DNA of 64,000 nt from the NCBI GenBank assembly GCA_973895155.1, contig OZ316891.1, forward strand, positions 30,075,012 to 30,139,011, read 5' to 3'. The position numbers and the translations under genes are program-made. The notes beneath the pieces were generated by a model that saw nothing but the letters and a program-made list of their open reading frames with translations, was not told the DNA's origin and ran no database searches. Numbering within the stretch: position 1 is the stretch's first letter; every line of letters begins with the position of its first letter. Source of the stretch: Marsupella aquatica. Lineage: Eukaryota; Plantae; Marchantiophyta. Below, piece after piece: positions 20,673 to 45,259 of this stretch.

Positions 20673-20900
20673 CACAGGAAAACTTTCCTGCTTTGCACAG
20701 ATGACTTTTGAGAAATGCACCGTCATCTCATGCACAGAGGTGAAAAGGTAAAATGCACTTAAGAATGGTGTGGAAATTATATTTACACCGAATCTAAGTG
20801 CAGAAATCTCCCATAGTGACTTTGCACCAGTATCGGCTTTTAACTTGTCGAGCTTTACGTGCAAAACCCTGCGGAAGTTAAAACAAAGTGCAAATCTTGA
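20673..20900. repeat. Left TIR and subterminal TTTGCAC/GTGCAAA motifs
   Basis: TTTGCAC at 20692 and 20821, GTGCAAA at 20859 and 20888, plus several ATGCAC variants. Confidence 0.65.
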
Positions 20901-22312
20901 GAAGGGAGGAGTAGTACGAACGTGACAGAGTTCAATAAGAAAATCGAACTGCATGTGTACATTGACACATGACAGGAATATGACTGAAGAGATTTCTTGT
21001 AATTAAGCTTGGCAAAACTTTGGGACTTTTGAGAGCAGATTAATTCTAATTACTGGAGGCGAGGATGGCAGAGAAACCACGGCCGCCTCTATAACTTTGT
21101 ACCTGTACCAATCAACATATCGATAGTCTTTAAAGCAACTGTAAGTTCTTAAAGCTAATTCACATACAGTCTTCCCTTGTCGTTGTCGTCGAGATTCAGC
21201 CATTGTGGTGGATCCTTATCAGGGAAAGTAGCACTCAGATCCATTGGCGAAATTCAGTGGACAGATAAATTCACACAACAGCACCTCTAGGGTCGCCCGG
21301 GTATCACAAAACTTTTGTGGGTGAACCGGCTACATACTCAAGTACGTGGCTGGTTGAGATGTTTGCGCAGGTACTCTGCTTCATCGAAAGGCCACTGATA
21401 GTCAGTAACTTGCTGAAAGAATTGTAAACAGCTGAATTTTACATGATTGAGCATGAACGAAGGCTTGAACTATATACCATGAGATGATCTAGCAGGTTTC
21501 AAAACATACTGAAGCGCTTCCCTCTATTTAATTGCTAATTGCTCTGAAACACATGCAGATTATACAAAGGAGGGATAACTTGTATCCTCTACAAAGAAAA
21601 TTCACTGATACAACTACAAGTGACCTTCCTCCAAACTGGTATGATCGAGAAGCCTGAGAACTAAGCATCTAGCGCATAAGAATTTTGCTTTGCATCACTG
21701 GCCTCCTGGTGGGATAGCAAGCCTAATTAAGATTCAGGATAAATAGAATTTACTAACTAGCTACAATGGCACACTTATTCAAAGACTAAAGCACAACGGT
21801 GAGAAACCCCCTGTATTGATCAGGGAGGCATTAAGAAGAAGAGACTGACCTCACATATGTAAGAGATCAACCGCTGTATAATTCATTCGAAGCAACTCCT
21901 TTCTATTTTTCTCATGTTGATATGCTTCTGCTCTGCCGCACTGCAAATTAAGAAGTGTACAGCATCATCTCACGTCATTGTAGAATTATTGACATACTAT
22001 GCAAAGTGAAATTATTTTTCATGTGCTTACCACCTACTAAACTCCTATCAACCTGTGACTCCTTCAATTTCACCACAAAGAACTCAAGACAAATTCTTTA
22101 AGACAGTAGCTAAAATGGATGTGACCCAGGAAGTAACTCACCTGCCAGTGGCCTCAAATTGATTAGCTTTGTAATATCTGTCATGATCAGGTATGTGGAG
22201 CCTCCTTGGTCTCACAAGCTTGGGTCCTGGCTTCTGAGCAAGAAGTGGATCAAAATCTATTCTGGAATCACTCTATTATTGCAAGAAGAGTGTGGATATG
22301 ACCCATGCCTAG

Positions 22313-25048
22313 CTAGCACTCTCCTATCAGATATCTTGATTTATTGTACAAACCAGGTTGTCTAGGGGGAGCTTTTAACTGGTCCCGTTTCAAAAACAAA
22401 CTGCTGGTCCAATTTTTTGGTGCTTTCCATCTCATGGTGGTGGACCCTCTCAAATCTATTTTTGAAAACAAGGTAGGGTCCAGAACTGTCATAATGTTTT
22501 GCCACAGCAAAGTAAAAACTTCATCTGGAGAAAATACCTTGAAGAACTCATGCTCACTAACCTCATAAGCACTTGATTGATCAGGAGCTAGCCAAAGTAC
22601 TTCTACTTTCCTATCTCTATTTTGCAGTTCAATATTTTCTGCATCATAGTGAACCTTAACGATGTATGCCAAATAGAAATTTGCATGAGGTCCACTAGCA
22701 GTTAGTGAAACAATGACAACATCGTTGCACAAAGGCCATGGAGGGCAACACCCAGGTTTCCCAGGCACTAACAAATGCGTTCGGAGAACAGCATCTTGAA
22801 ACTCAAATGCCACAATTGCTTTTTTACCTCTAGGTTCTTGTTTTGTTGGGTGTGAAATGAATCTATGCCTAAGGCTAAACACTGGAAAGACCTTACTTCC
22901 AAGGCTTTCACTTGGGTCATCCAGAAGCAAATTCATGTCTGTATTATCTGTTTTGAACAACACTTCCTCACCACCATCCCCTTCTATGGACACCTCAGTA
23001 TAGCAACAGGCCTCAAAAAAAATCTGGTAGTGACTGTCAAATGCATGGATGAAAAAAGATTTAATTCTACATTTCAACAATGGCCTCTCCTTGTTGCTAT
23101 TCTCAACCACTGCAAGGTCATTCTTCCTGTAGTGCACTCCATCAACAACAACCCCTCGAATAATCTCAATTCGAGGCCTGAACAGGTAGTCATTAGTAAG
23201 GTTCAGAACATTTTCAGCCACCCAATGTGACCTAAGATGTTGTGAAATCTCTCCATCTGGAAATATATCAACCTCCAAACCTTCGTTTGGCCCTATGCCA
23301 ATTCCTTTGGCTACAACCTGTATGCAAGAAGAGTCAAAGCGACCCATATATTGCACCAAGGTCCACAACTGAGTTGCTTTCTCTATACTAGTCACCATAG
23401 ACACCTTGTTTTTGTACAATGTGGGACTCAGAAAATCTCCCACTGCAAGTCCAACTATACGTGGATACAAAGAGCACTGTAATATATGCAACGTTCTCTG
23501 GTCCCTGTGGAGTCCATCTTTGTCTTGCTGCAATTGAAAAAAAAATTCTGAAAATTGTTGACGGCAAAAGTATTGTGCAAAACTCATTTCACTCGATTTA
23601 CTGTTTGTAGTGATGTTGTTGTATCCACTAACCATACGCTCGAAGCCATAACACCAGAATATATCATGATGGCCATGTCGAACTATGTCGTCCAAAATTT
23701 CACCATTCCCTGGAAAACCAGGCAAGTACTTACATCAATGGCAACTACAACAGTCACAAAGTCTAAAGTAAAAGCTACACATCAGTATTTAAAAGTTCAA
23801 ATGGATCATTCAATAATATTTAGTTCAAAATAAATTTATGGTATTATTAACTTTATAGTAGAAACAGTGTTCTTACATACCAGTGACATGCTCCACTATT
23901 CGCCCAGTTGGGCCATATGCTTCTTCTGTAAGCACTCTCCAAGCAGAAAGATGAAGTCTTGCATTCTGAAGCATATCAATTGTCCATCCATGTTTTCTTG
24001 AAACAAGAAAAAACATTCTGCTCAAGCGAATGAGAATTGCACCTTCTGCACCAAGGGGAGTGGCAAGAGTGTGCCCCAATTCTTCCAAGATAGGAGCCGC
24101 ACAGTACATTGTGAATAATAAGTGTTCCTCTGCTTTATAATTGGAAAACTTCCATTTTGATCCCATACCTAGTACATTTTTCACGTACAGAGGAGGACGT
24201 GGCCAGCAAGCCCCTAGTCCAATTGGCGGATTGTTAGTTACAATCTGTAAGACCTTCATCAGCTTCTTCACCTCCGCAGCATTACAAGATTGTAACAAAC
24301 TGTCATTATAAGTTTTGAACACCCCAAGTGCCAAGCAATGCATTGGATCATTGACTAAATCAAGTGATATGTCAAATCCATGAGTATCATATAAGGACCA
24401 CATATCTGAATAGTGTGACAAACCACTCTGTCTCTTGTACTCTGTTTTCTGTTCTTCATTGGTAGCTTCTCTCAAGCATTTGCCAAAATAATACATGCCT
24501 TCTACATCCCTTTTGATTGGTGGGAATCGAACCTGCTTTCTGTTTTGACTGTAAACTACTACTTTTTTCTTTCCTTTATTTGACAGAATGCTTTCTGAAT
24601 ACAAGAGATCACGTCTACAGCCATTGTATCCCATCAATAAAGTACCTCCAATCTTACTTTGGGCTGGCCCATCACCAGTCCACAGCATGGGTATTACTCG
24701 AACAATTATGTGCCTGTCCCTATTATTTGGCATGAGTGAAGGCACAGGATAATCTAACTTCACAGGGAAGCCATTGACAAAACTATTTTGAAAGTCAGCC
24801 CACAGGGGTTTCAGAAAAGCTTGTAACAAGTGATGTTCTTTTTTTCTTTGTAATAACTTAGAGGACATAGGAATAAAAAGTAGAGGAATAGGCCTTGCAA
24901 TTTTTGAATCAGGTAATACTCTTTTCCCACCATTCAGGATAGTAATTTCCACTGTCCAGCAATCCTTTTGAACAGTGGTTGCAGCTTGAAAGCCATCCCA
25001 ATGTCCCATCACAACTATGTTAAATGGTGAACCCATGAGCTCCGCTTG
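22313..25048 (-). CDS. CACTA/EnSpm TnpD-like DDE transposase, 5'-truncated; exons ~25048-23881 and 23709-22313, possibly further small 3' exons
   Basis: Motifs NIVVMGHWDGFQ, AFLKPLWADF..SFVNG, RVIPMLWTGDGPAQSKIGG...GYNGC, DPMHCLALGVFK, YKAEE and DDIVRHG..IFWCYGFERM. A GT..AG intron at 23880-23710 joins the two ORFs in frame (EHVTG|NGEILDD). Confidence 0.85.
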
Positions 25049-25617
25049 TGTAACATGGATTCCTTGAGTAGTGCAAGGTGCGTTGGCTTGACATACGTGT
25101 GTGATCGGATCGGTGCAGGATCGATGGGGTATTGTTGACCGAGATCGTTGTGCCGATTGTATGGAGATTATTGTGGGTTTTGGACATGTGTGGACATGAG
25201 TTCCACTTGTATTCCATTCTCTTGTATTTGTGATGTGGCAGTGTGACTATGTCTGGATGTATGTGACAAGCGATGTATGTTGTGTAGCGAGGAGATTTTA
25301 ATATTTGTTGTGCCAAGGAGATACGAGGAGGCAAGATGTGGAAGGGGAGACCCCTTAAAACTGAAAAAGGAGGAGGGGTGTTGACCAAGTTAAGGAGAAG
25401 GGGGGATGCACATGGATGGGAGTTGGTGTCTTCCAAAATTTTAATATTTGTTGTGCCAAGGAGATACGAGGATGCAAGATGTGGAAGGGGAGACCCCTTA
25501 AAACTGAAAAAGGAGGAGGGGTGTTGACCAAGTTAAGGAGAAGGGGGGATGCACATGGATGGGAAGACAGGGAGGGGGAGCTCAATGGATGACAAAAGGG
25601 GAACAACCTCCTTTACA
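25049..25617. mobile_element. Solo-LTR-like segment abutting the truncated transposase 5' end
   Basis: Begins TGTAA and ends TTACA, with an internal ~140-bp tandem duplication (25296-25563). No matching TSD (GCTTG vs CAATG). Confidence 0.4.
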
Positions 25618-27252
25618 CAATGACATCTTTTATTATCGACTTCTTTTCCAACCTACATCTTGATGGCTGATGATAAGAATTATATAACAAATGTTGTCAA
25701 AAATTTAAATCTCAGCTAAGATTTTCCCTTCAAGTGCTAGCAACGTGCACTTAATGGTCGTTCCTTCTGCTAAGTTTTCAATAAGGGAAATGAACAAAAA
25801 CGTTTTAATTTGCACTTGGGCAATTTCCGCCCCTCTTCATTTGAGTCCTAGTTGGCTGGCCCACTCTCTCGAGTGTTTCAAGGGTGGGAGAGAGTATCGG
25901 TAACTAACTACAAAAAACAGTAAGATAGACAGTAATCAGTGATTTTCCTAAGATGATTTCACTTAAATATGCTGATTTTCCTAAGCTGACCTTAGCGGCA
26001 CTTAACCATAAGTTTTACTCCAGTTAACTTATTTAACCACTTTCTATCTTGGGGGGAGTACTAACAAGTTGTTAACCCTTCTACCCTCTGTCAACAATGT
26101 TATAATGGATAGGGCAATTGTAGAAGAACCCTATGTACACCCTAACCTAAACCACTTGTAGAAGAACCCCATTTAACCCTAAACCTACCCCTTTCCCCTT
26201 AGTTACCACATCAACCAACTTTTGTAATTTTTGGCATCAAACCAATTTTTAGTTTTGGTAGAGCCCAATTGGTAGAAAAATGGCCGGAAAACTAAAGCTC
26301 ATGTTACTAAGAAATCCCAACTAGACCCACATACTGGTTCCCCAAATTGCGCAGTTAGAACTACCAAATTCTAAAGAAAAATGAACAAGTATGTAATGAA
26401 GGGTTTAGGGTCCATTTTCAATGCATGAGATCCATGTGCTTTCTCATGTAGAAAGAATGGAGGTTTGGTCATTTAGTACTCATTCTGTAAGGTTTAGTCT
26501 TGGATATGGTTGACATGCATAATTAATTACCTTTGGATGCTCAGGGCTTATCAATTGTGAGTGAATCTTTCCTGAATGAGTCATGTTTTAAGTTTTTCCA
26601 TGACAAGGTACCTCAATGCATTGGGACAAGTCATGGTTTGGGTTTTGCCATCATAAAGTATACGGATGCATGTGGGCTAGTTATGGTTTAAGTTTTGACA
26701 TCACAAGGGTACCCACACATTTGGGACATGCAAGTCATAATTTAAATTTGTCATTACAAAGTATCCAATATAGGCAACCTAAGAGTAATTTTTTAAGGGG
26801 TTAAGGGTTGGTCTAAGTTAGTGAAGGTACGTAGAGGCATTACTACATGCCACCAAACTACAGGTCTAGTTCTGCTATATTGGCACACTCAACAAGTTTG
26901 GTTTAAATTTTTCCAATATGGGTTATACTAACCAATGATAGTAAATCAATGAAGGTTACCTTATGACAACACTAATAGTAAACCAATGATGTGTATTATT
27001 GAAGTTTCTAAATTCTATGAGTAAACCAATGATGTTTATTATTGAAGTTTCTAAATTCTATGAATCGCTTGGAGTCAATTCATTTGATAGTGTTTGGAAA
27101 CCCGAAGCATAAGCCCCCCACCCCCTGAAGATGTAATTAACCCCCCACCCTTGACACATAACCCCCTAAACCCCCTTTAGTGACCCCACCCCTTTGAGAC
27201 CTAACGGCCCACCCTTCACTTATAAACCCCCTTTAGTGGTTTCTATTAGTGA

Positions 27253-27378
27253 AAATTGAAGCTTTGGTTAAAGATTATGGATTTTTAGTGTTTGTAGGTA
27301 AGTGTGAACATGAGAGATTTGGCAAACCCCTCTTATTACAAGGGGAACATACAAATCCTCTAAGATTGTCTTTTTTGG
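27253..27378. repeat. Left arm of a diverged inverted repeat flanking the Fpg/Nei-like gene
   Basis: TAGTGTTTGTAGGT...TGAACA...AGATTTGGCAAAC...TATTACAAGGGGAACATACAAATCCTCTAAG is the reverse complement of 29618-29737 (and of 33554-33695). Confidence 0.8.
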
Positions 27379-27834
27379 AAGCTCATATGGTATTGGAGTG
27401 ATTTTCAAGCTAGTTGTGAGGTCCAAGTGATCCTCAAGTGCCATTGCCTAGCACTTGTAAGGTTGTATGAGGACCCTTCTATATATACCAATATGCACAA
27501 CACTATTACATTTGCCACTCCAACAACATTTAATCCCGCATTTAATTTCTGGTCATTGGACCCTAAACTGTCCACTTGCTTCAACATTTAAAATCTAATG
27601 ATTGTGCACTCTATTGGCCCCAACCTCAAGTTCATTTGAAAGGTATGGATGAGCACTTTGATTCTATGTTAGTGGTACTCAATAATAAATTCATTTGATT
27701 GACATCCATGACCACTGATTTCAAACATTGCACATTTTTAATTTAGTCACTGATTTCTTCTCACCCAACTCTTTGCGGTTTTGTATGTGATCCCAAGATA
27801 AAAATTTTGATGTAAAATTTCTTTTGATTTCAGG

Positions 27835-29232
27835 ATGCCAGAAGCTATAACTTACTATGACATGGCTCGACGAATTGCTACAGCAATTCCTATTGAGGCA
27901 AGTTTTAGGATTATTGTGCATCTGTTCAATTTTGGTAAAGGCTCGTTGAAGTGTTTTGACTTTTGGCAAAGCCATCAACACAATATTGTGAACATTGATG
28001 GCAAAAAAGTTTGTCATCACGGCAAGATGTTGTTGTTTCCAATCATGCATGTGAACGATGACTATTCAATTTGGGTGAAGATTACATTGAGCTTACATGG
28101 GCAAGTTGTTATTGTCAAAGCTATAGAGGCTCAACAACTCAGTAATCCAACCAAACCAAATCCGCCTTATGCTCTGTTATTATTTCAAAACATGGATTCA
28201 TCTGGTCAATCAATTGCTCTTGTGGATCGAAATCGACTTGCATGTGCTGAATTTATCTCCACTCAGTCACACCTTGATCCAAGAAATTTTCAGATGAAAT
28301 CTGATGATTGTGATGAGTGGATTGTACGAGGTTATTGTACAATGACTCAATACAAGCAATGGCGCCATTTCATTATTGGAAACACTACAAAATGGAGTAA
28401 CCTCTCAAAATCAAGTAACACAAGCATCTTTGCCTTTATGATTGACAATCAGAATTACTTTGAGGGTATTGGCACTTCTCATTGCTCAGAGATATTGCAC
28501 ATTGCCAGAGAACATCCAGCTACATTAGCACGAGTCATAATGCAATCACACAAACGATTGAGCAAACTTTGTGATGCTGTAAAGACATTCTATGATAAGG
28601 CTTACTCTCAAGAATATCTTCAACATGTTCCTGCCCGAAGTTCTGGTTCAGCTTTTTATGAGTCACCGGCAACATCTTTGTACATCAACACCCGGTTTCA
28701 TAAAGTCTATGGAAAAACAAATACTGGGGTGCTCATTCCAGTTAAAGTTTATGATAGCATGGTAAGCAAACATCAACTTGATCCATGCTACCAATTGTCT
28801 ACCACAAAGGTAGGCAATCGTCTTGTTCACCTCACACAAAGAAAAAGGGTGAAAGTGTATGCAATCTACATACGCGCCAATCGGGGCATAGTTTATACTT
28901 GCATTTATCTTCCACATCCATATTCTGACAATCCTGAGATTGTGAAGGGCAATGTCGAGAGACCACTAGTGGTTCCTGATGAAAAAGCAGTTTGCAAAGG
29001 ATTTGGCCAAACTAGACGAGCAGAGATTGGTATTGCTTCTTTCATGGATACTAAGCAAATTGAAGAGCAAGAGTGTCATTCTACATATAGACGTTATCCA
29101 CTACGTACTGGTGCTGTTGGTCGTCCTCGACTTACCAAACGTTTATATTCAGTTCAAAACATCACTATAAAAAAGGCTTCCAAATCTATTAGGCTTGGAC
29201 AGGTACCCAATGAGTATATTAGAGAGACTTAG
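27835..29232 (+). CDS. Fpg/Nei (MutM/NEIL)-family DNA glycosylase/AP-lyase-like protein, 465 aa, intronless
   Basis: N-terminal M-P-E; HHGKMLLF (cf. RxGKxL); TLSLHG (cf. HLGMxG); LVDRNRLA (cf. FxDxRxFG); H2TH motif FMIDNQNYFEGIGTSHCSEILHIAREHP (cf. LLDQ..IAGIGNIYADE.L..A.IHP); KVYGK. A TTTCAG acceptor lies immediately before the ATG. Confidence 0.85.
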   Translation: MPEAITYYDMARRIATAIPIEASFRIIVHLFNFGKGSLKCFDFWQSHQHNIVNIDGKKVCHHGKMLLFPIMHVNDDYSIWVKITLSLHGQVVIVKAIEAQQLSNPTKPNPPYALLLFQNMDSSGQSIALVDRNRLACAEFISTQSHLDPRNFQMKSDDCDEWIVRGYCTMTQYKQWRHFIIGNTTKWSNLSKSSNTSIFAFMIDNQNYFEGIGTSHCSEILHIAREHPATLARVIMQSHKRLSKLCDAVKTFYDKAYSQEYLQHVPARSSGSAFYESPATSLYINTRFHKVYGKTNTGVLIPVKVYDSMVSKHQLDPCYQLSTTKVGNRLVHLTQRKRVKVYAIYIRANRGIVYTCIYLPHPYSDNPEIVKGNVERPLVVPDEKAVCKGFGQTRRAEIGIASFMDTKQIEEQECHSTYRRYPLRTGAVGRPRLTKRLYSVQNITIKKASKSIRLGQVPNEYIRET

Positions 29233-29534
29233 ATTAGATTAATTTGTTTTGCCAAGGAGTTACAAAGTACATGCCCTATCCATTTGCAAATTTATGCGTT
29301 GTTGTCATAACCAGGTTTCCTTGTCAATTTTCCTTTTGAGGTTTTGGAGGCCTGTCATTTAATACTGCATATAACTCCATGCCAAATGTACAAATTAAGG
29401 TGCATTGTGAACTGGCTATAAATAGGATAGCCAACATTGTGTATTTTAACTAGCACATGTCAATCTAGCAAATGTACCATTCCTTATATACCCTACTATA
29501 CAAATTATGGGCACCCCAAGGAAAAACTGCCATA

Positions 29535-29737
29535 TCCCCCTGTGGTAAATCAAATTTATCCTACCTTATCTAGGGCTTTTACCTAGTTTAATGTTGGTCT
29601 TCTGCAATCCTACTTACAACAAAAACAACCTTAGAGGATTTGTATGTTCTCCTTGTAATATTTGTTGTTTGCCAAATCTTGTGTGTTCATGTGGGGTTTA
29701 ACCCTAAACCTACAAACACTAGAACTGCCTATAATTT
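29535..29737. repeat. 203-bp direct repeat, left copy (flanks LINE)
   Basis: Matches 33471-33673 with one mismatch seen (TTTGTTGTTT vs TTTGCTGTTT). Confidence 0.92.
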
Positions 29738-29748
29738 CCTTGGAATGG

Positions 29749-32700
29749 TTTTTTTTATAAAGTTTAATACCGTGAAAGACCCCACGGATAGGGGGAACAA
29801 TAGCCCTTAATACAGGGACAGCAACAGCACACTAGCGAGCCACAAAGAGAGCCCAAAAGCACAAAAGAGAGCATCAAAGCCCCAGGGAGAGCCCCCCCTC
29901 AAAGAAGGGAAATAACACCGATCAAGAGAGCACCCATGCCCTTCCCACAGCAGCCCCCCAAAAAGCAGACCCCTCAATCAGCAACGCCGCCGCTAGAGGG
30001 CACCAAGAGAATCCTGTCCCCACCCCGTCTCAACCAGATTTGCCTCGTTCCCCGCAACCATTCCTGAGCCCGGTTCAACCGAGAGCGACGCCGCCCAAAG
30101 CGTAAACCAGCCCCAACCGCATGGATGTGATTGGCAGTCTCAGCAAGCAGCAGGCCCAAGTCAAATGAACGTCCCACCTTGTCAGAGAACATATGTTCAT
30201 TTCTTCCCAGCCAAATCATCCAGAGAGTCTGATATACACAAAAGATCCTAGCAGTGTGAATAGGCTCCGGTCCTGTCGATGCATCAAGAATAGCCAGCAG
30301 ACCACCTCCAATGGGTAAGCAAAGCTCCGTCAAAATCCTGTCACACATCCTCCAGCAACATGAGGCATGGGAACATTCAATGAACAAATGTTACATCGTC
30401 TCCAAGACCCCACAGCAAAGCTTGCAATTCCCAGTACCAGCCTGGATACGGAGGGCCCGTTGACCAGTAAACAATCCACCAACCAGGATCCGCCAGATAA
30501 AGGTTTTTGCCCTGCAGGAGAGGTCAGAAATCCACAGCTTCTTCCATCCAATGCACCATTCAATTTCCGACCGGTGTGAGGACCAGCACCTATTAAGCAG
30601 CACATGAAGGCTCATCTTGGGTCTCAAGAACTGGTAGACCCTGCAGTTGGTGATCTGAAAGTCCTTGAGAGGTTCTGCCCTGTCAGACCAGCGCCACTGT
30701 CTGGCCGGAGGATCCCTGTCCCACCTGCAGGCAGTTGACTCCCAAATTCTCCCTAGGAACGCTCTAGCCAGCCCTCTGTGCTCCCCCGTGAATCCTCGCA
30801 GCACCTGCCCCCTAAGCGGAAGGTCTTTCCAGCCCCCTGTCTCCACCGACCATCCGTCCTGAATTGATCTCATTCCCAAGCGTCCACAAATAGCAGTGAC
30901 TCCTACAATATCCACATTTGGCAATGAATTGAAATCTACCATACATCTAATTGCATCGTTAATGCTCCAGCGTCCAGGGGCACCATATCTCCCAGGACAA
31001 AAAGCCAGATGGGCACGCAGCTCCTCCCAAGCCTTCCATAGACCACTTGTATACCTGAGACCACCGGCTGCCCTAGGAGTACAGAGCAGAAGCCTATCCT
31101 TGAACGTGTAATTGTTTCTTCTGATCACCTTGTAATTCAACCATCCCATTAAAGATAAGTTGGCTGCCAGCATCTTTGACCATTCCCTGTCTGGATACTC
31201 TAGGGCCTTAGTGAACCATTGTGATAATAATGCATTGGAGTGGCTTCTGAAGTCCTTGAATCCCAGGCCGCCCTCTATTTTTGGAAGTGTCATCTTGTCC
31301 CATGCCACCAGCGGAATTTTCTTCCCACCTGCAGGATTATATCCCCACAGAAAATCTCTACTGAGGGCAATGAGTTTCTTGGCCAGACCCGCTGAAGCCT
31401 TGAGGTGCATCACATGGTAGATTGGGATGGCCTGGAGCACGTGTTTGACCAATAAGGTTCGACCTGTGAAAGAGAGGAGCTTATTTGTCCAGGATGACAG
31501 TCGTGAGCTGATTTTATCTAGGCAGAATCTGTGCAGTTGCTCAGTCTTCAACCCGGCCCCCAAGGGAGCGCCCAGATATTTCTGAACCTCCCCCATTGCA
31601 CTCACTTGACAGCCAGAGTACAGCAGCCAATCCGGGATGACCTCAATTGCCAAGGGAATCACCACAGATTTTCGTAGGTTCAGCTTTGCTCCAGAACCCA
31701 TTTCATAACATGCAAGTGCAGTTTGTGCCTGGGTGAAAGCTTCCTCCGTGGCAGGAATGAACATTCCAACATCATCTGCGAATAATCTGTAGCATATTGT
31801 GAGTGTGTCCGTGATTGACAGTCCACTAAGTCTCCCAGCCTCCATCTCCGTAGCTAAGAAGTCCATCAGCGGTTGTGTCGAGATGACAAAAAGTAGGGGC
31901 GACAAGGGGCAGCCCTGTCTCACCCCCCTCTTAAGCTCAATCATACCCGTCGCAAAACCATTGACCATTGCCTTCGAGAAAGATCCAGCCAACAGAGCCC
32001 GTACCAGTGTGATAAAGTGGCCACTTATTCCCAGTAAGTGCATTGTGTCCCATATGTATTCGTGATTCACCCTGTCAAAGGCCTTTTCGAAATCCAACTT
32101 CAAGAAAAGTGCCTTCGTCTTCTTGTGCTGTATCCAGTCACATGCGAGCCAGGCCAGTGAGATGTTTTCCAGAATGTGGCGCCCCTGTATAAATCCGGTC
32201 TGTTGGGGGCTGATTATCTTGTTCATGATTTCTTGTAACCGCAATGCCAGGATCTTAGCAATGACTTTGTACGTTGTGTTCAACATTGTAAGGGGACGCC
32301 AGTCCTTCAGTGATCTCTTATCAGGCTTCTTCGGAATGAGCTTTATTATCCCTTCTTTTAACGCACTATCAATCTCTCCTGTCATCCAGAATTCTTGTAT
32401 CATTTCCACCAAGTCCTGTCCCAGAAACTCCCAGCATGCACGCAGTACTTCTGCCATTAAGCCGTCTGGGCCAGGCGATTTGTCTCCTGGTAGCATCCAA
32501 AGCACTTCCTTCACCTCTTTAGTTGTCGGGAGAGCTTCCAATTTCATTCTCTCTGCCGCTGTAAGCGCAAATTTTGTGTGTTGCAGTAGACGTCTCCTCT
32601 CTTGTCGTCGTTCTTGTGTCTCCCTTTGTGAGGGTTCCTGTGGTGCATAAAGTGCTTGACACATTTTCTCCACTTCAAGCACAATGCTTGCCGCCTCTGT

Positions 32701-33470: not shown

Positions 33471-33673
33471 TCCCCCTGTGGTAAATCAAATTTATCCTAC
33501 CTTATCTAGGGCTTTTACCTAGTTTAATGTTGGTCTTCTGCAATCCTACTTACAACAAAAACAACCTTAGAGGATTTGTATGTTCTCCTTGTAATATTTG
33601 CTGTTTGCCAAATCTTGTGTGTTCATGTGGGGTTTAACCCTAAACCTACAAACACTAGAACTGCCTATAATTT
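33471..33673. repeat. 203-bp direct repeat, right copy (flanks LINE)
   Basis: Matches 29535-29737; its first bases TCCCCC overlap the LINE GGD codons (microhomology). Confidence 0.92.
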
Positions 33674-35529
33674 GAAACCAGAACATCAATTTTGGTCTTC
33701 CAAACAGTGTCAATGAGTTATAAAATAATGGGCAATGATGCATGACTTGGATGTTTGCATGTCATGCATCATGTCATTCTACAAAATGAATTTGCACACA
33801 AAAGAAGTCAATGATTGTCTAGTAAAACAAATATTATCTGCATTATTTAGTTTTCCCTCCCTGTAGTGTTTCCTACTTGTTAAATTCCTACATTTGAAGT
33901 GGCGGATATTCCCTATTGATCATGTAATGTGGGATGTTCACTTTACACACTTTGTGCTTTTCCCTACTTTAGTGTTAGCCTGGGTGTTAGCATGTTAGGT
34001 AAAGGGTCCCTAATTAAGTGGGGCTTTTACCAACATGGGAGTGTGTCCAATCTGCCTTGTGTGCACCTTATCACCAAGAGTCTCAAATATTCTTGGACAA
34101 CATGTGACTGTAAAGCAATGTTTACTCATTTTCCCCATTTTGTAATTAAATGGACCATCAAAGGGATTTGACAGGATCCCTTATTATGGTTTTATATATA
34201 GATTTCTAGTGACCTAGCCTCATTGCCCAATCATATAATTGGACCAAGCTAGATCGAGAAGTAGTATACTCGATCACTGAACAGTTCAAGGTCAAACTAT
34301 TGGGCACAGCAAAGTACTAAGGTAAGTATAGAAAATAAATAAGCTATATCCAAAAGGGGAAAACTACTTGAGTAATCTACTAACTTCTAAGTTGGATTTA
34401 GGATTAACGCCCCAAACCAATATATCTGTCTACAAAATGGGGATGGAGCAAACTCCCTTCCACACTGCTATGTCACTGCTGATCCCCCCCCCCCCCCCTA
34501 CTCGGGCCCCTACTGCTATAAATTTTGAGAACTAAGTATATTCAAGAGTATATTACCAAATGTACAGAGATTCCATGAAGGTGAGATAGTTCTTGGGACC
34601 TGAAAATTGGATGGCCGCCATCCATTTCCTTATGGAAAAATTCCACAAGCACAACCAATGAGAGGGTGTATATCATTTTCTGTGAATGAGATGGCTTAAG
34701 TTTGCAATTTGTAATCTAAAGTTTTAAGGAATCAAAAGGATTCTGGATCACAGCTTACATTTATTTGCTGCACATAAAGCCATCTTTGTCCAAGTCAACC
34801 AATCACATGTAAGTGAATAAAATATATACCAGGTGATTTTCAACCAATCCACAACGCTAGCTGCATGCATTCAAAGGCTTGAAGCAGGATGTTGCAACTG
34901 ATGGCAAAATTGTTCCTTTATATATATATATATATAGCTAATAATACCAAAAACAAACATGAGAGTAATTAAGTTGTGCTTGTAGTATATGGCATTTAAC
35001 CTCAACTTTGACACGTTTGTATTCAACACAACGTACTGACTGTTTGGATTTCAGCATTCTTGGTTTAAAATACCTTCTATTTTATCAATGGTACCCAACT
35101 TACTAAATGCAGTAGTGTATGATATATAAGTATATCACTTGTATTAATACACTGCCCGTGGGATACCTAGGCAGCAAAACATTCCTTGTTGCAGCAAAAC
35201 ATTCCCTTATTGCCGTACAATTAGCCTGCCTTTACTGCTCTGCTCAGGGTGTATTTTGTTGGGGCACGAATAATTTGAACTCTATTGGCGCCAGCCTCGG
35301 GAAGTAAATTAGAATAACCTGAACTCTGTTGGCGCCAGCCTTGGAAAGTAAATTAGGTTTTTAAAGCTTATGCGTGTCATATGCGCCCCCTGCCCTTGAC
35401 AAGCAGCAGCCCAGTATCACTTCTACACTGCTGTACTGGCTCGAAGTTCTCTCGTGCTTTAGCTTGTCTTCAAAGTGAACACCCTAATCCATACATAGAG
35501 CAAAGAGTCTGGTTCAGGTTTGGAGCAGA

Positions 35530-36190
35530 GCTATTGGAAGTGAGCAACTAACGTACTTAATCAAAGTTTACTTGGAGATTGAGAAGTAGACAAGATCGCA
35601 TTCGGACCTATTGCTACGTCGCAGTTGGAAGTGAGCTGTTAGAAATGAGCAACTAACGTACTTAATCGAAGTTTACTTGGAGATTGAGAAGTAGACCAGA
35701 TCGCGTTCGGACCTATTGCTACGTCGCTGCTGGAAGTGAGCTGAATTCGACCACCCCACCAAATCGAATTAGTCTACATGACGGCAGCCCAGTTCGTTTT
35801 GCTGATTGCTGGAAGTGAGCAGCGTTCGGACCTAGTTGCGTCGTTGCTTGGATTGAAGTGAGTTTAATTCGACCACCCCACCAAATTGAATTAGTTTACA
35901 TTACGGCAGCCCAGTTCGTTTTGCTGATTGCTAGAAGTGAGCAGCGTTCGGATCTAGTTGCTTGGTCGCTATTGGAAGTGAGCTTAATTCAACCACCCCA
36001 CTCATACCAAATTGAATTATTTTACATTACGGCAGCCCAGTTTGGGTTGCTTGTTTTGCTGATTGTCGGAAGTGAGCAGCAGTCGTACCTAGTTGCTTCG
36101 TTGCTATTGGAAGTGAGCTTAATTCGACCACCCCACCGAATTGAATTATAGTTTACGTTACGACAGCCCAGTCTGTTTTGATGATAGCTT
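35530..36190. repeat. Degenerate ~105-130 bp tandem repeats upstream of the SAM-domain gene
   Basis: Recurrent GGAAGTGAGC, AATTCGACCACCCCACC, ACGGCAGCCCAGTT and CGTTCGGACCTA modules; fainter copies continue to ~37300. Confidence 0.85.
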
Positions 36191-37335
36191 GAAGTGATCA
36201 GCATGGAATTCAAGTTAACTGCAAATCGGCAATAACAAACCTGTTACGTGGACGACTCGAAGCTCCTTCAAATGCCGTTATGAGTTTGTAATGCATATAG
36301 TAACATCGAGAGTAAAACATAGCTCAGTGGTTACGTGGATCTTATTGTTGTATGTGCTTGGATGGATGGGGAAATGAGTGGTCGTTGCATGAGTAGTTAC
36401 ACAAGGCTTACATTGCAGTACATAAGCTAATAGCCCAGTTTGTTTTTGCAGGTCTGGAGGTGATTATATTGTGACTGTTGGGAGTGAGTGCCCCACTGTA
36501 CAGCAGAGCGTGGCCCAGACAATAAGTACAGCAAAGTACAGCAAGCGTGGCCCAGTTTGTCTGCAGAGGAGGTGGTTAATTTCTGTAAGTTGAAAGTAAG
36601 TGCGCACTGAAATAGAAGTTTGCATACAAGAGCAGAGTAGTAACCAAATTAAGTACCCCAGTTTGTTCTTTGGAGCAAGTTCATTTGCAGTAGTTTGAAG
36701 TGAGCACATTCAAAATTAGTAGCAGGAGAAGTAACGAGGTTATTTTTGGAGGTGACATATTACTTGCTTTTGAAAATTGAGCACCATTTTTGGAGCTGAT
36801 TAACTACTGTTGGAGGTGAGGAATGTACCAAATTGAAAATTACATATTTAAGTGTAGATCAAGAAGTAGCTTGGCAGTTGAATTTTTAAACAAATTGACT
36901 TGCTGTTGGAAAGCACGGCCCCATTGCAACATAGAGCGCACAAGCAGCCCATTTCATTAATTAGAGGAGATGATCAACTGCTGTTGGAAGTGAGCATGGC
37001 ACTAAGTTGAAGTTTTTCCCACTGTGCAGAGCTAGAAGTAGCCAAAATAGCTGCCCAGTTTTGTTTGGAGCAAGTTGGCTTGTTGTTCATAGCACTGTGC
37101 TGAATTGAAGGACAAAGAGCAAAGATTGGCAGAGGCAGCCTGTTTGATTTGGAGCAAGTTCGATCTGATCGATCATCAAACTGAAATTTTCAGAGGAAAA
37201 AGTAGTCGTGTGCCTAGCTCAGATCTGAATTTAGTTTCACTGTAGAGAAGCAGCCCAGTGCTAAACCCAGACCTGCAAAGCAATCCGTTTTAGACTAGAA
37301 ATAGTAGCCAGTTTATTTTTCACATCCTCATTGTC

Positions 37336-40300
37336 ATGGCTGCTGTGAAGGGCATGGATCCTTTGCAACTGACCAAATTTCTCTTGGAGAAAAACCTAAT
37401 TGAGAAGGAGCAGTCAAAGGCCGTTATTCTCCAGGATATAGATGGGGAAATTCTTTTGGAGATGTCAGTAGATGAGCTTATGGCTCACCTTCAATACAAT
37501 TTCGGGAAAGCTACCCGCCTAAAAGGCTGGCTGAAAAAGAACAGTAAGTCTGTACCAACTGTCAAACCAGCAGTTAATAGTGAGAGTGAGATGAGGACTG
37601 TGCAGAGTGTCGAACCAGCAGTTAATAGTGAGAGTGAGATGAGGACTGTGCAGAGTGTCAAACCAGCAATTAATAGTGAGAGTGACATGAGGACTGTGCA
37701 GAGAGTGGCACTTGTAAACAAGGACTGTAACAGTCTTGTTAACAGAGAAAGTGAGAAAGTTATAAATTGATTACCACAGCAGAGATCACTGGTTGATGAG
37801 ACCCCATATTCCTGCAATAGCAATGACAAAGGTCGTGTGAGAAAGCTGAGCTCTACTAAGTTGCCATTAGACCCTGTTGTTCATATTGTTGAGCTCAAGA
37901 GTAGAGTCTTTGACAAAAAACCTACAGGAGAGTATACAAATATGTGGGGAAAGGGTTATCTTGAAACCACATAGTTTATCTGGAGAAAATGACAAGAGAC
38001 ATAGGGGAACCAAAAAAACTTGAGAAATGACCAGAAAAAAAACTCTCAAGGAAATTGGTTCTATGCAGCATTAGGTCTCTTACAAAGTGATAAATAGATA
38101 AGTTAGTACAATCATGCAATCAGACACCCGACATGTTCTTGAGAGCCTACAGTTATTCTCAAGACACCACTTAGTACCATGACTACCGCACTTCACGACT
38201 TGGGTTTGCCCTTGGCCCACTGGAGACGTCACTCCCCTCAAATGTGCTTATGGTGACCTACCACCTGTGGACCCAACTTTGGTCCCTTGATTTTGGCCCC
38301 TCACCAGGACTCCAACCAAGGTGACCAGGCATGAAGCTAACTTGTTAGGCCCAGAATTTTCTTGTTAGGTGTTCATAGGTAAAGTACCTTTTCCCGTTGT
38401 GATTGGGCCTACGCATTGCTCATGCCGAGGCTCTCAGGACTCGTCGCCCATAGAGGGTCCCGGGCGGCTCCACCCAAGTGCCGTCAATTTTCATGCCTTT
38501 AGCGTTCATTCCACATGAACCAAACTTCATTGCACTTAGGCCCAAGAGGAGCTATCACTCAAGCCCTCAAAATTGAGAGTCCATCCAGGGGTCCGGACAG
38601 TCTGCTCTAAGCCCAACCCTTATCGTGGCCCAACCAGCTCATAATGCCACTCCAAATCCCTGGTGCGCAACCCTAGCTCAACGCATTGCCTTTGCTAGAG
38701 CAACGCTTCCTTGCTCTCAAGTCTGCTTATACTTAGTCCTTCTGGATGGTCATGATGCCTGGACCATGGGGGAGCTTGGCACCAGAGCTAAGTGGTAGAG
38801 TAGTCAAGTTTTGTGACTCCAACTTGCGAGAGGGGTTAGTGCGCTCGCATTGCGGGAGCTAGTGATGTCATGGGTGTCCTAGCAACTTTGGGATACATGA
38901 GCAGGCAATGAGCGTGGACTAGTATGTAGCCTTTCGGGAGGCCCAACACGTAGAATGCCCAGGAGTTTAGGTCTTTAATGTGGGGGAGGAAGGGTACTAG
39001 ACTCGCGAGCAGACCGAAGCGAAACGACCTGTGAGATTTTGAGGATTGACATTGACAGGATTCCTGTAGCCCGAATGGAGAGAAATCCCAACAAATTTGA
39101 GAGACGATCATGGTTCGCAATTGAAAAAGAAAGACGTTAAGAATAGAAGCGAAATAGTAGAAGGATTGCCAGTTGTTACCTGAGGACTGCACTGAGTGGG
39201 ATTCGAAGAGAATCCATAAGGACCCGATAGCAAAAGCCCAAAAGAGAGGAAGGAACCAGCAACCTTGCCCCTTACGCTAGCAGCCAGGAAAATTGAAACA
39301 GCGATAGAGCAACCGAGAACGGGATTTCTACAGAAGACCATCGTAATGGGACAGCATAAGAACCAGATGGCGAAGCAGTAGACCCGCGAGCGAAACCACA
39401 GACGATTTAGGAAGTGAAATTGAGGAAGCGCAAGAGCAACGAAGCCCGAGCATAAGCAGATTCATAAGGACACCATAGGGAGACAGGCGAAAACATCCTT
39501 GAAACAATCCAGTCCTTGAGGCCGTGGCGGCAGCAGAAGCGATGACCACAGATCAAAACAAGACCGGGGCACAAAAATGAGAATAGCAAGGAAGAGAAAA
39601 AGACTTCCAATTTGAACAGCAAAGACAGCCGCAACGCATCCATAAGGACAAGAGGCGCCACAGGAGCACCAAAAAAAGGAATAGAGGCAGAACACGCAAC
39701 CTCAAGGCCCAAAATCATCGACAGAACGTCGAAGCAAGGCCAAACCGCTAAGTGCACCACCTATAACCGCAAAACCTCCATAATTGCATTTCATAACAAA
39801 GAAAATCAACCTTACAAAGCCGCATGTGCACTTAACCAAGGCACGAGTAAATTACCACCCATAACTGCACAAACTGCAAAACTTCATTACTGCACATTTT
39901 AACAAAGGAAAGAGCTAATACAAAGGAATTCTTGCAGTTATACATTTACAAAGACAACCTAAATACTAAGTGCAAACCCTAAAATTCTGCAAAAACCCAA
40001 ACATTCTTGCTTTACTCACCCACGACTTAGATTACTCTCCTCAACCCTTTCTCCACCATTACATGCGGCAAATGTGCAGTGTCTTTTGACTATATATATA
40101 TATATTATATAAACACGCACAACAACGCTGCACGCCAGGACCTTAGAGATGACCAACCTCGAGAAACTTACCTTCCCAGCCCTAGAAATCGATGGCGGCA
40201 CTACCTAGAATGGTCCATGAACCTAAAAGAAAACCTAACCTCGCTAACCCTACTCCCTGCGATAGGGCTCGCTCAACCCATCCTAGCCGGCGAACCACAA

Positions 40301-43300
40301 CCAGACCCATTAACTAAAGCCAAAAAATCTAAGGCCCTTGTATTCCTTAGACGTCATATCCATAGATTCCTACAAAGACAATACATGCACCCAAGAGCAC
40401 ATTCTGCATATAACAGAAATGTGGAACAAATGAGGGGTTTTTTTCTTCTGATATTTACAATCCAGTGGTAGCCAATGCTTGGAGGTCTAATTTTAAGAAG
40501 GATAAGAAGTCCTACATGAGCACTCTGGAATTCATAGAGGACCATTGCATTCTTCAACTGGAAGATCTTGTTTTGACAATTGGAGAAGTGACTGTGCGAA
40601 TTACCTGGCCTGCAAAGGATATTATGAGGTGGTTTCTTGAACACAAGAAACACCACTCCAACAAACGGCTGCAACAAATCTCTTCAATTGAAGCAGAAAA
40701 TGAGGCATTTTTGGGAGCACTTCCAACTTCTGTTCACACAAGTGGTTTGGATGAGAATTACTTTTCTTAGGAAGTGAAAGATACCCACTATGTACATTCT
40801 TTAGAAGAGTCAACTCCAGTTACCCCTCCTGAATTTGTTCCTCACATTTCTCCTCAGTTGGATCCTCAGTCAATTAGCTCTTCTGAATTTGGTTGTCAGT
40901 ACGTTGAAAGATCCAAAGTGGCTTACTCAAGGATTGGATTGTCCTGAAGTTTCCAGGACAATTCTCTTAGGAGAAGAAAGTCCAGATTCAAATGGTTCAG
41001 AGGCATCCAAGAAGACTTTTGTACTTGAAGGAGAGAGTCCAAGCTTGGATGATACAGGAGCATCACAAACAGCTGTTGTTGAAGGAAGCAATCTGGCCTA
41101 TAATAATTCAGAGGCACTGCAGCAGGTCGGTTTTGAAGAAGGGAGACAAAGTCCTCAGTCTTTGGTGGATTCTTCACCAGAACACAAACGTCATAGAAAA
41201 ACCCCAATTGTAGTCTGCACGGCACCAAAGGGTTCACAACTTTTAGGAGGGACAGTGACAGTGCCAGAACAGAGTCATTATAAGAAAAATCAATATGTGG
41301 TTGGTACAGCAGATACAGGGTCAAATCGCTCCAAAGGGGCTAAGGTATAGTGGCTCAATGTTCCATTTCTTTAGTTTTTTTATATGTGAAGTTGTGTGTA
41401 CCATGCACTATTCTATGCCAATGTTAATTTCAGATCATCCTATTTTTTTATATATGTGCAATGGATCAAGCTAGTGACTCAATGTATGAGAATTGTAGAA
41501 TAATAGGAAGGCACATTGTGGGGAGTTTGCCAACTATTTAACTCATTTAATTTGGTCAAGAATTTGGTATAATTTGTCTGCATTATCCAGGTAGGCGACA
41601 TGCATGCTCAAAGGGGAACACTAGTCTAATCACTAACTGTGGTTTTACTTATGTTGAGTTCTGGCAGGATCTTTTTGCACATGATCTGTGCAGCATGCCT
41701 GGATTGATTCGTCGCAAGACAGAGTTTTTGATTTCAAATACAAGTACAGATGCAAACTCACCGAATCAATCAATGACCAGCACTGAAACAGACGACTCAG
41801 TCAAGCTCAAGCATCCCAAAAAATCCATTCAAGATATCTATGAAGCGCCAATTTGTGATGCCCCAACAGCCACAAGGACCAAGCTTCCAAAACATCTTCC
41901 TGAACATACTGTTTTATCTCCATCACGTATCAATTTCTCTGGTCACAACACTTTATCTCAGGGTGAAAGTAGACCACTTTTGTCTATTACTAAGAAGGTA
42001 AGTAAAGAGAGTTTTTAACTTTTAATTATCTACTCAAAACTTGTACTGATGATTACTCTTCTTTTCATCATGTCTTCAGGTCTCCCATTGAGCAGCTTAA
42101 ATGCTAACAGTTTTATTATCATCTTGGCAGACATCAAAGCTGACACCAGTTCAAAATTCCAAGAACAAAGAAAATGTTGCCTCTGCATCATTGGTTCCTT
42201 CTAGCAAAAGAAAAATGCAGAGGTCGCTTGAAATTGTGCAAGACTTGGTAAGATAGAAAAATATCATTGAATAAGTCTCTCAGCTAGATTTGCCACTGTC
42301 ATACTATTTACAGAGTTACAATTAGTCCATGACTTGTGAGTACGTACATGGCATACATCATGACTTACTTTGTTGGACATAGGAAAGAGCTTTTTGACAT
42401 AATATATTTTTAATTGTGTTATGTGCAGGACATTTGTAATCTGGATGAGGATGCCAAGCTCACTGTTGCTTACAAGGCAATGAGGTTATCTAGCAAGAAA
42501 GAGGTCAAACCTCAACTCAAAAGTTATATGGCAGCGCAAAATCACAGAGTACAGTTATTTAATGAGCGTGCATTGTTTGGTGAGAAACTATCGATTCCAT
42601 TTTCTGGACATCAGAAAATAAAAATCCCAGCTTTATTAGATGTCCTTGTAAAATGGGCATTGGAAACAAAGGTTACTATTGTGAACCCTCCTAAACCGAT
42701 GAATGGAAAGGTCCGTCTCTTTGCTCAGCACATCCAAGATAAGTAAATCAGGATATATTAGCTCAGCACATCCAGGATAAGTAAATAAGGAGATAGCTCT
42801 CTTTTTGTTAGATAGTATGTACTTGCTATCTATCCAGAGAATATAGAGATATAATTAATAGCTCTGTTTTGGCTGTCCTTGAGCTTCGTTTCAATCAGGT
42901 TTTAGGTAGTCTCAATTCGTATGGCTATCTATATATATAGACTTGGCACTATCCTGCCCTACATGTTTTTTCCAGGCACAACATACTGTCTACTGTTGCT
43001 ATTAATTAAAGGATGAATGTGCAGACATTGGACACAAGAGACATTGTGTACATATTCTCTCCAGTTTGTCACATATATGTTCTAATCCTTGGACACAAAC
43101 CTGTTTCATTGTTTGAGTAGAATATTGGCATTATATTTACTGTTGTCCAAGCTTCTGCCAAACTGCTGTTCATTTGTCAAAGCATGATCGAGGCTACAGA
43201 TTATGGGGTCCTCCATTGTGATATCAAACTAGACAACTCATTGCCTGCTTAAGAATGTACAGAAGCTGTGACTTTGGAGAATATATGAAATCACTCCTAC

Positions 43301-44562: not shown

Positions 44563-44975
44563 ATTTCTGTTGAGCGTGAGTAATATTTCTGTTCTTAGAT
44601 CTGTTCGGTCTTCCTGCATCCACGAACATTTGTATGGCAGGATTAGATCTATTGATCGACCTGTTCGGTCTTCGATCTGGCATCCACGAACATTTGTATG
44701 GCAGAGATTCGATCTATCGATTTCTGTTGAGCGTGAGTAATATTTCTGTCCTTAGATCTGTTCGGTCTTCCTGCATCCACGAACATTTGTATGGCAGGAT
44801 TAGATCTATCGATCAATCTGTTCGGTCTTCGATCTGGCATCCACGAACATTTGTATGGCAGGGATTCGATCTATCGATCAGTCTAGCCCTTGTACTAAGA
44901 AGCAGCCTCAACCGCAGATCTGTGATCAATCTATGGTAAGCCTCAACCGCAGATCTGTGATCAATCTATGGTAAG
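44563..44975. repeat. Subterminal tandem repeats (~157 bp x2 with internal ~60-bp units; 35 bp x2)
   Basis: GCATCCACGAACATTTGTATGGCAG occurs four times; AGCCTCAACCGCAGATCTGTGATCAATCTATGGTA occurs twice. Confidence 0.9.
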
Positions 44976-45009
44976 GATTCCATCTCCATAAGGCTGAGTT
45001 CGAGTGAAA

Positions 45010-45259
45010 TTCTTGCTTTGCACTTAATTAAGTCAAGCAGCATTATCTTTTCCACTTACGATATCAGGGTGTAATATTTATCTGGACAACTTTTCCACCG
45101 AATAGTTTTACACCTGTGTGTTTCTGTTTTGCACCGAAGCTTGATTTTGCACTCAATTTGAGTGCATTGGTCCACAGTGGACCTTTTGCACTTTAGATGC
45201 TAATAACGGTGTAAAAAGCCTACTACTGCACCTCAGGCAAAAGCAAAACTTTTCCTGTG
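45010..45259. repeat. Right subterminal TTTGCAC motifs and right TIR
   Basis: TTTGCAC at 45017, 45128, 45146 and 45185; terminus AAACTTTTCCTGTG. Confidence 0.65.

What the first reader, a model, noticed from the sequence alone, without database searches (positions are those of the whole stretch)
20673..45259. Giant CACAG-ended CACTA transposon carrying a DNA glycosylase-like gene and a SAM-domain gene
Seen: a precisely delimited 24.6 kb insertion (empty site in three sister units, CAT TSD, CACAGGAAAA TIRs, TTTGCAC subterminal motifs). It holds a transposase, an intact Fpg/Nei-like ORF and a SAM-domain gene. Known: CACTA/CMC elements make 3-bp TSDs and plant ones usually end CACTA or CACTG; some transposons encode anti-silencing factors (Spm TnpA, VANDAL VANC) or travel with TET/JBP base-modifying enzymes in fungi. 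Inference: I know of no described CACTA family with a base-excision enzyme, so this may be a new transposon system that edits or repairs its own DNA, for example countering methylation damage or processing excision ends.
Basis: partly seen in the sequence, partly recalled or inferred. Interest (0 to 1): 0.92.

Follow-up and report, generated by a model that had tools for sequence, protein, structure and literature searches.

The report
Transposons carrying their own DNA glycosylase
A plant CACTA-type transposon holds an intact gene predicted to be a NEIL1-like DNA base-excision enzyme, and its fungal relatives ride an unrelated transposon class under purifying selection, so transposons likely carry their own base-removal enzyme, possibly to undo host methylation silencing.

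Summary
The element is real: CACAGGAAAA ends, CAT duplication, three empty sister sites. The 465-aa ORF 27835-29232 models as an Fpg/Nei glycosylase (NEIL1 Z 21.5) and keeps Pro2, Glu3 and Lys64. It is only 16-18% identical to Arabidopsis FPG, so it is not a recent capture of that gene. This copy's transposase is broken; the SAM call is weak.

The main result lies outside the window. Of 13 fungal-type homolog loci, 9 carry IS3EU-type ends (8 insertion sites) and 6 have the integrase in cis. One is a complete 2,956-bp element with a 6-bp duplication whose only recognisable gene is the glycosylase. dN/dS between subfamilies is 0.12-0.22, against 0.12 for the transposase. The family thus rides at least two unrelated transposon superfamilies in two kingdoms, as TET/JBP does.

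Most likely role, inferred and untested: excising modified cytosine to counter silencing. Open points: linkage of transposase and glycosylase in other plant copies is not shown, no RNA data, substrate unknown, and the fungal loci may come from few genomes. Ten paper searches listed no report of such a system.

The parts
20670..20672 (.). left target-site duplication CAT
20673..20922 (+). left TIR (CACAGGAAAA) and subterminal TGCAC/GTGCA motif cluster
22313..23710 (-). transposase last exon (holds the FERM catalytic-Glu motif, label recalled); 38% identical to Riccia P0017
23876..25039 (-). transposase core exon (WDG, GDG, DPMH motifs); 48% to Riccia P0017, 68% to P0079
25037..25583 (.). 541-bp insertion with duplicated GAGCTC that interrupts the transposase exon; 25046-25290 is a very high-copy repeat, 25295-25564 a 143-bp tandem pair
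25584..25660 (-). short upstream stub of the interrupted transposase exon ending at an AG acceptor-like site; more 5' exons not found
   Evidence: six-frame reading; inference
27252..27381 (+). upstream arm of an inverted repeat pair that brackets the glycosylase gene (74-85% identical to the downstream arms)
   Evidence: score 127, shuffled maximum 45
27835..29232 (+). intact 465-aa Fpg/Nei (NEIL1-like) glycosylase ORF: Pro2, Glu3, Lys64, H2TH with Glu219, family-specific C-terminal motifs
29535..29737 (.). first copy of a 203-bp direct repeat around the LINE; contains the downstream inverted arm (29613-29735)
29738..33470 (-). nested 5'-truncated LINE; RT ORF 30391-33294 (RVT_1 E 5.5e-32, zf-RVT)
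33471..33693 (.). second copy of the 203-bp repeat and downstream inverted arm (33549-33693)
35268..36202 (.). internal tandem repeats (44, 105 and 122 bp units)
37336..37770 (+). exon with a probable SAM domain followed by 16-aa repeats; likely first exon of the element's second (TnpA-position) gene
   Evidence: weak
40453..42746 (+). further open frames, possibly later exons of the same gene; no family match
   Evidence: inference
44563..44975 (.). subterminal tandem repeats (157, 64 and 35 bp units)
45010..45259 (-). right subterminal motif cluster and right TIR
45260..45262 (.). right target-site duplication CAT

Best explanation
This is a broken, likely non-autonomous CACTA/CMC transposon that holds an intact member of a transposon-borne family of predicted NEIL1-like DNA glycosylases, which likely serve the transposon by cutting modified cytosines out of its DNA so that host repair restores unmethylated bases. 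Shown: the element, the fold and catalytic residues, carriage of fungal relatives by IS3EU-type elements, and purifying selection on those genes equal to that on their transposase. Inferred: that the plant gene travels with the CACTA family, that the enzyme is active, that its substrate is 5-methylcytosine, an oxidised form of it or its deamination product, and that the C-terminal GRP motif (AT-hook-like, recalled) helps aim it at the element. Odds split: transposon-borne selected glycosylase family about 0.85; anti-silencing or anti-methylation-damage role, given that, about 0.5.
For: Fold: AlphaFold pLDDT 83; all 40 Foldseek rows shown are Fpg or NEIL1; NEIL1 Z 21.5, rmsd 3.1, 263 residues, Fpg tied at Z 20.6; family profile to NEIL1 E 1.6e-10. 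Pro2-Glu3 in 25 of 44 family rows, the other 19 lacking an N-terminus as called or cut; Lys64 aligns to E. coli Lys56 and Glu219 to Glu173. Residues that wedge into DNA differ (Met73/Arg108/Phe110, triad recalled, align to Leu87/Asn133/Leu135), hinting at another substrate. Transposon carriage: 9 of 13 fungal-type loci have TACGG..CCGTA-type ends at 8 distinct sites and 6 of 13 have a Clr5 + rva_4 integrase gene in cis; L003/L007 is a complete 2,956-bp element with a GGAATG duplication and no other recognisable gene. IS3EU is defined by TA..TA ends and 6-bp duplications (PMC10045372, passages; PMC12730594, passages). dN/dS 0.12-0.22 in 7 between-subfamily pairs, transposase 0.12. Near-identical multi-copy genes in Watsoniomyces (3 in one 90% cluster) and Arthrobotrys (2 accessions). 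Precedent: TET/JBP is carried by 11 fungal transposon lineages including IS3EU and EnSpm (PMC12730594); Spm TnpA anti-silencing needs host glycosylases ROS1/DML (bioRxiv 10.64898/2026.08.24.746577, passages); NEIL1 excises 5-carboxylcytosine (PMC5566547, abstract). Four runs under two species labels hold variant copies of both the transposase and the glycosylase region.
Against: Elements that carry the gene are still CpG-depleted: transposase exons 0.21-0.30 and glycosylase 0.43 of expected in the window; fungal glycosylase genes 0.05-0.23, so protection is at best partial. The conserved H2TH Asn168 aligns to Thr214. No TET/JBP domain was matched in the fungal element ORFs scanned, so an upstream oxidation step is not supplied in cis. 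No contig piece listed links transposase and glycosylase in a second plant copy, and one variant glycosylase copy has a premature stop. The fungal loci come from a few related samples and may be one lineage. Between-subfamily dS (0.8-2.7) is near saturation; 2 further pairs were saturated; the 5 within-subfamily pairs give 0.38-0.87 (transposase 0.41-0.78).
Confidence: 0.45

Rival explanations
1. In this plant the glycosylase is a passenger: a separate cassette or decayed nested element, bracketed by its own inverted repeats, that landed inside one CACTA lineage. The family is transposon-borne, but not part of this CACTA system.
For: Inverted repeats bracket the gene here, in L002 and in L003/L007. 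The element already holds other nested insertions. The gene is less CpG-depleted than the transposase and SAM exons (0.43 against 0.21-0.30), as a later arrival would be.
Against: No terminal repeat with a target duplication encloses the gene above chance: 30 weak candidates against 10-27 in shuffles, none strong. Variant contigs cover transposase, spacer and glycosylase alike in four runs. The ORF stayed intact while the transposase beside it broke. TET/JBP genes also move between superfamilies without own ends (PMC12730594).
Confidence: 0.25
2. The enzyme is an ordinary oxidative-damage glycosylase that transposons carry as cargo useful to desiccation- or light-stressed hosts (lichen fungi, truffle relatives, seed-free plants).
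For: Closest solved structure is NEIL1; named homologs include lichen fungi (Lasallia, Watsoniomyces, Sclerophora); H2TH glycosylases are described as oxidative-repair enzymes (PMC8307549).
Against: Selection pattern mirrors the transposase, strong between subfamilies and relaxed among recent copies, many of which are broken, as expected for a gene that serves the element. DNA-wedging residues differ from Fpg and NEIL1.
Confidence: 0.15
3. The glycosylase/AP-lyase helps transposition itself, by cleaning DNA ends or gaps at donor or target sites.
For: Always near a transposon end in the IS3EU-type elements (444-651 bp from the left end); Pro2-type enzymes have lyase activity (established knowledge).
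Against: It rides two transposase types with different chemistry (CMC and integrase-like), and most members of both superfamilies lack it (recalled).
Confidence: 0.1
4. It is a selfish DNA-damaging factor that favours nuclei or spores carrying the element.
For: A minimal element that keeps only this gene exists (L003/L007).
Against: No partner or immunity gene is evident; non-autonomous derivatives often keep a random internal piece.
Confidence: 0.05

Closest known systems
TET/JBP-carrying fungal DNA transposons (Kojima 2025, PMC12730594; passages, section 4.2 and supplement search seen)
   Same: A DNA base-acting enzyme carried as an extra gene by several unrelated transposon superfamilies, including EnSpm and IS3EU, in Pezizomycetes; proposed anti-silencing role, untested there too.
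   Different: TET/JBP oxidises bases; this is a base-excision fold. 'Fpg' and 'Nei' occur 0 times in that paper's text and supplement. Here the family also reaches a plant.
CACTA/EnSpm (CMC) transposons with TnpA anti-silencing (bioRxiv 10.64898/2026.08.24.746577, passages)
   Same: CAC..GTG ends, 3-bp duplication, subterminal motif clusters, a second gene besides the transposase.
   Different: TnpA recruits host HhH glycosylases ROS1/DML; this element encodes a glycosylase of another fold. Ends are CACAG; transposase is far from angiosperm CACTA (no Pfam match for the window exons).
Fpg/Nei glycosylases (human NEIL1, bacterial Fpg, Arabidopsis FPG)
   Same: Whole two-domain fold over residues 2-372, Pro2, Glu3, Lys64, H2TH.
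   Different: 14-18% identity; GIGTSH in place of G.GN.Y; changed wedge residues; extra conserved C-terminal E[IL]GIASF.D and G..GRP motifs outside the aligned range; multi-copy and transposon-borne.
IS3EU/GingerRoot transposons (PMC10045372, passages)
   Same: The fungal carriers have TACGG..CCGTA ends, a 6-bp duplication and an rva_4 integrase.
   Different: No glycosylase gene appears in the passages read; the window's element itself is not IS3EU.

Membership tests
CACTA/EnSpm (CMC) | CAC..GTG terminal inverted repeats | tested here: met
   criterion from PMC12730594
CACTA/EnSpm (CMC) | 3-bp target-site duplication | tested here: met
   CAT, with three empty sister sites
CACTA/EnSpm (CMC) | subterminal repeated motifs | tested here: met
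   8 and 6 per terminal 250 bp against 0.5-0.6
CACTA/EnSpm (CMC) | tnp2-family DDE transposase | tested here: inconclusive
   No Pfam match for the window exons; its 48% homolog P0017 matches Transposase_21 at E 0.00038, below cut-off; WDG, GDG and FER motifs present
CACTA/EnSpm (CMC) | C(2)C and H(3-4)H motifs between second D and last E | tested here: inconclusive
   Window has CRRD and NDPMH; P0079 has CRSD and HDPMH: variant forms
CACTA/EnSpm (CMC) | phylogenetic placement among EnSpm, Plavaka, ESTA, Lanisha | not tested
   no reference set on hand
Fpg/Nei glycosylases | N-terminal Pro2-Glu3 | tested here: met
Fpg/Nei glycosylases | beta-sandwich domain with conserved Lys | tested here: met
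   Lys64 aligns to E. coli Lys56; fold
Fpg/Nei glycosylases | H2TH motif | tested here: met
   Pfam H2TH E 0.0017, below cut-off; profile to NEIL1 E 1.6e-10; Asn replaced by Thr
Fpg/Nei glycosylases | zinc or zincless finger with conserved Arg | tested here: inconclusive
   Model has a hairpin at 342-355 inside the NEIL1-aligned range, with Arg350; the Arg is not invariant in alignment A1 and no residue-level structural alignment was given
Fpg/Nei glycosylases | glycosylase/AP-lyase activity | not testable with these tools
   needs an assay
IS3EU (fungal carriers) | TA..TA ends, 6-bp duplication, integrase-like transposase | tested here: met
   Both ends and duplication in L003/L007; left end plus rva_4 gene in 6 loci whose contigs stop before a right end
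SAM domain (second gene) | profile or fold match | tested here: inconclusive

The most novel reading that the evidence does not exclude
Eukaryotic DNA transposons of several superfamilies, in fungi and land plants, share a dedicated Fpg/Nei-derived glycosylase that removes methylated or oxidised cytosine from their own DNA: a self-encoded demethylase of a fold unrelated to ROS1/DME, passed between transposons and from fungi to plants.
Probability: 0.35. Interest if true: 0.93.

Novelty: new variant of a known kind. Interest (0 to 1): 0.8.

Why it matters
Known transposon counter-silencing either recruits host enzymes (TnpA) or oxidises bases (TET/JBP). A conserved base-excision enzyme carried by the transposon would be a third route, and a possible new DNA demethylase fold useful for epigenome editing. 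The question is directly testable: the ORF has no intron, models well, and standard oligonucleotide assays would name the substrate. Even if it only repairs oxidised bases, it is an unnamed Fpg/Nei subfamily that moves with transposons across kingdoms.

Tried and rejected
No whole genome is held for the window, so copies could not be counted in an assembly. Transposase homolog searches gave 2 longer and 1 near-length protein; none shared a contig length with a glycosylase hit, which says nothing either way. No relatives of the glycosylase in viral contigs (0 of 70 candidates) or prokaryote genomes (0 of 71). No RNA holder listed among 5 runs; not evidence on expression. Summed contig depth is not a copy number and was not used as one. 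The 18 coding variants shown (glycosylase 4 of 9 synonymous, transposase 2 of 9) are too few and too selected to test selection in the plant; a proper plant dN/dS is left open. Recent capture of plant FPG rejected: 16-18% identity to Arabidopsis FPG. A nested element with intact ends around the gene was not found. The tree (quick method, 45 rows, one distant outgroup) gives the window a clade of 8 rows at 100 but only 82-90 for its nesting among fungal rows; no test of direction was run, so fungus-to-plant transfer is a lead only. The single-sequence SAM model was too poor to use. The reading of 25040-25246 as transposase was dropped: it is the high-copy insertion. Three look-ups of earlier scan findings returned nothing. 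Paper searches listed no transposon-borne Fpg/Nei gene; most subscription papers and Repbase are outside the library, and the 2014 PNAS paper on fungal TET/JBP transposons is recalled, not read. Supplements of the bioRxiv paper could not be seen.
Full report
Observation. The insertion is as described. It starts CACAGGAAAA at 20673 and ends TTTTCCTGTG at 45259, between two CAT triplets. Three sister units of the surrounding Kelch-repeat gene array read through the site with one CAT. Subterminal TGCAC/GTGCA motifs are about 12-fold enriched. CAC..GTG ends with 3-bp duplications fit EnSpm (PMC12730594, passages). The host is likely a seed-free land plant: the only named transposase relatives are from the liverwort Riccia sorocarpa and the flanking genes match the plant Kelch_FKB95 model below cut-off. 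This is inference.

State of this copy. The transposase lies on the minus strand in two exons, 48% and 38% identical to Riccia P0017. A 541-bp insertion with a duplicated GAGCTC interrupts the core exon; its first half is a very high-copy repeat. No exon matching the first 365 residues of P0018 was found. A truncated LINE sits between 203-bp direct repeats at 29738-33470. The SAM call rests on a sub-threshold Pfam match and an Atlas lead. So this copy is probably non-autonomous, yet the ORF at 27835-29232 is open for 465 codons.

The enzyme. A model built on 50 homologs has pLDDT 83. All 40 Foldseek rows shown are Fpg or NEIL1, and the second aligner gives NEIL1 Z 21.5 over residues 2-372, with Fpg within 1 Z unit. 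The family profile finds NEIL1 at E 1.6e-10. Pro2, Glu3, Lys64 and Glu219 match the catalytic and structural residues of E. coli Fpg. The H2TH reads GIGTSH, and the residues aligned to the DNA-wedging triad (recalled: Met73, Arg108, Phe110) are Leu87, Asn133 and Leu135. Two conserved family motifs, E[IL]GIASF.D and G..GRP, lie beyond the NEIL1-aligned range. Identity to Arabidopsis FPG is 16-18%, so this is a separate subfamily and not a recent capture of that gene.

The family. Searches gave 16 and 56 homologs. The closest (59-73%) are unnamed. All named ones are ascomycetes: Watsoniomyces, Sclerophora, Maublancomyces, Lasallia, Choiromyces, Arthrobotrys, Ascobolus, Orbilia. None was found in viral contigs or prokaryote genomes. 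The window falls in a clade of 8 rows with full support; its place among fungal rows is weakly supported.

Where the relatives sit. One metagenome scan gave 13 loci. L008, L009, L010 and L012 share 96-98% identical sequence that begins abruptly at TACGGC, about 650 bp before the start codon, with four different flanks; L004 and L005 form a second subfamily; L011 has the same end. Six loci carry a Clr5 plus rva_4 integrase gene downstream. L003/L007, one insertion seen twice, is a complete 2,956-bp element from TACGG to CCGTA with a GGAATG duplication; the glycosylase is its only recognisable gene. These are the marks of IS3EU (PMC10045372, passages; PMC12730594, passages). In all 9 of 13 loci, at 8 sites, show such ends. 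L001 and L013 are too short to judge, L006 showed no end, and L002 has other inverted motifs around the gene. Their tree position beside Choiromyces suggests Pezizomycetes; they may come from few genomes.

Selection. Of 14 glycosylase pairs, 7 between subfamilies give dN/dS 0.12-0.22, 2 are saturated, and 5 within subfamilies give 0.38-0.87. The transposase control gives 0.12 between and 0.41-0.78 within. The gene is thus kept like the transposase: constrained in active lineages and decaying in inserted copies. dS is high, so the ratios are rough.

Other plant copies. Four runs under two species labels hold the region. Their contigs show a second transposase about 10% diverged, a derivative that skips 21923-24713 in three runs, rearranged spacer variants and variant glycosylase letters, one a premature stop. 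The pieces listed are short and none links the two genes. Alleles cannot be excluded, and one run may be the window's own source. Co-travel in the plant is therefore likely but not shown. Inverted repeats bracket the gene in the window, L002 and L003/L007 (3 of the 11 testable places including the window), which keeps open that it arrived as a cassette; no ends with a duplication enclose it in the window.

Mechanism. Shown: fold, catalytic residues, carriage by two unrelated superfamilies, constraint. Inferred: activity and substrate. Carriage by transposases of different chemistry points to a problem all transposons share, and host cytosine methylation is the obvious one. TET/JBP shows the same spread over superfamilies in overlapping fungi (PMC12730594); Spm anti-silencing depends on host glycosylases (bioRxiv 10.64898/2026.08.24.746577, passages); NEIL1 can excise 5-carboxylcytosine (PMC5566547, abstract). 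I therefore favour excision of modified cytosine followed by host repair, at 0.45 overall. Against it, the carriers remain CpG-depleted, no TET gene was matched in cis, and characterised Fpg/Nei enzymes act on oxidised bases (PMC8307549, passages).

Novelty. Ten library searches listed no transposon-borne Fpg/Nei gene, and the closest paper has no mention in text or supplement. Repbase and most subscription journals were not searched. The kind, a transposon with an accessory base-acting enzyme, is known; the enzyme class appears new. Verdict: new variant of a known kind, interest 0.8.

Noticed in passing
L003:807-3762 (= L007:9452-12406): Complete 2,956-bp non-autonomous IS3EU-type element with a 6-bp duplication, holding only the glycosylase gene between 106-bp AT-rich inverted repeats.
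   Followed up: yes
L009:10244-10837, L003:1617-2195 versus L010:14301-15101: Fungal glycosylase genes are far poorer in CpG (0.05-0.23 of expected) than the integrase of the same element family (0.75); the window shows the opposite order. Small counts; unexplained.
   Followed up: partly
window:29535-33673: The nested LINE is flanked by 203-bp direct repeats, 99.5% identical, far longer than a usual target duplication; the repeat is multi-copy in the runs and overlaps the inverted arm beside the glycosylase.
   Followed up: no
window:25046-25290: Short repeat with contig depth hundreds of times that of its neighbours in all four runs; probably a SINE or similar, unclassified.
   Followed up: no
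window:38100-40400: Stretch within the putative SAM gene that ends in a frame resembling the start of a plant copia gag (recalled); Pfam gave no match and no LTR ends were found.
   Followed up: partly
window:6650-59000: Tandem array of four diverged units (82-92% identical), each with a Kelch-repeat gene; the unit next to the element is split into two frames.
   Followed up: no
L002:560-800 and 4200-4700: Arrays of inverted motifs on both sides of an intact 590-codon glycosylase gene, without IS3EU ends; possibly a third transposon type.
   Followed up: partly
window:61367-63326: Two long GA-rich tandem arrays of 18-19 bp units.
   Followed up: no
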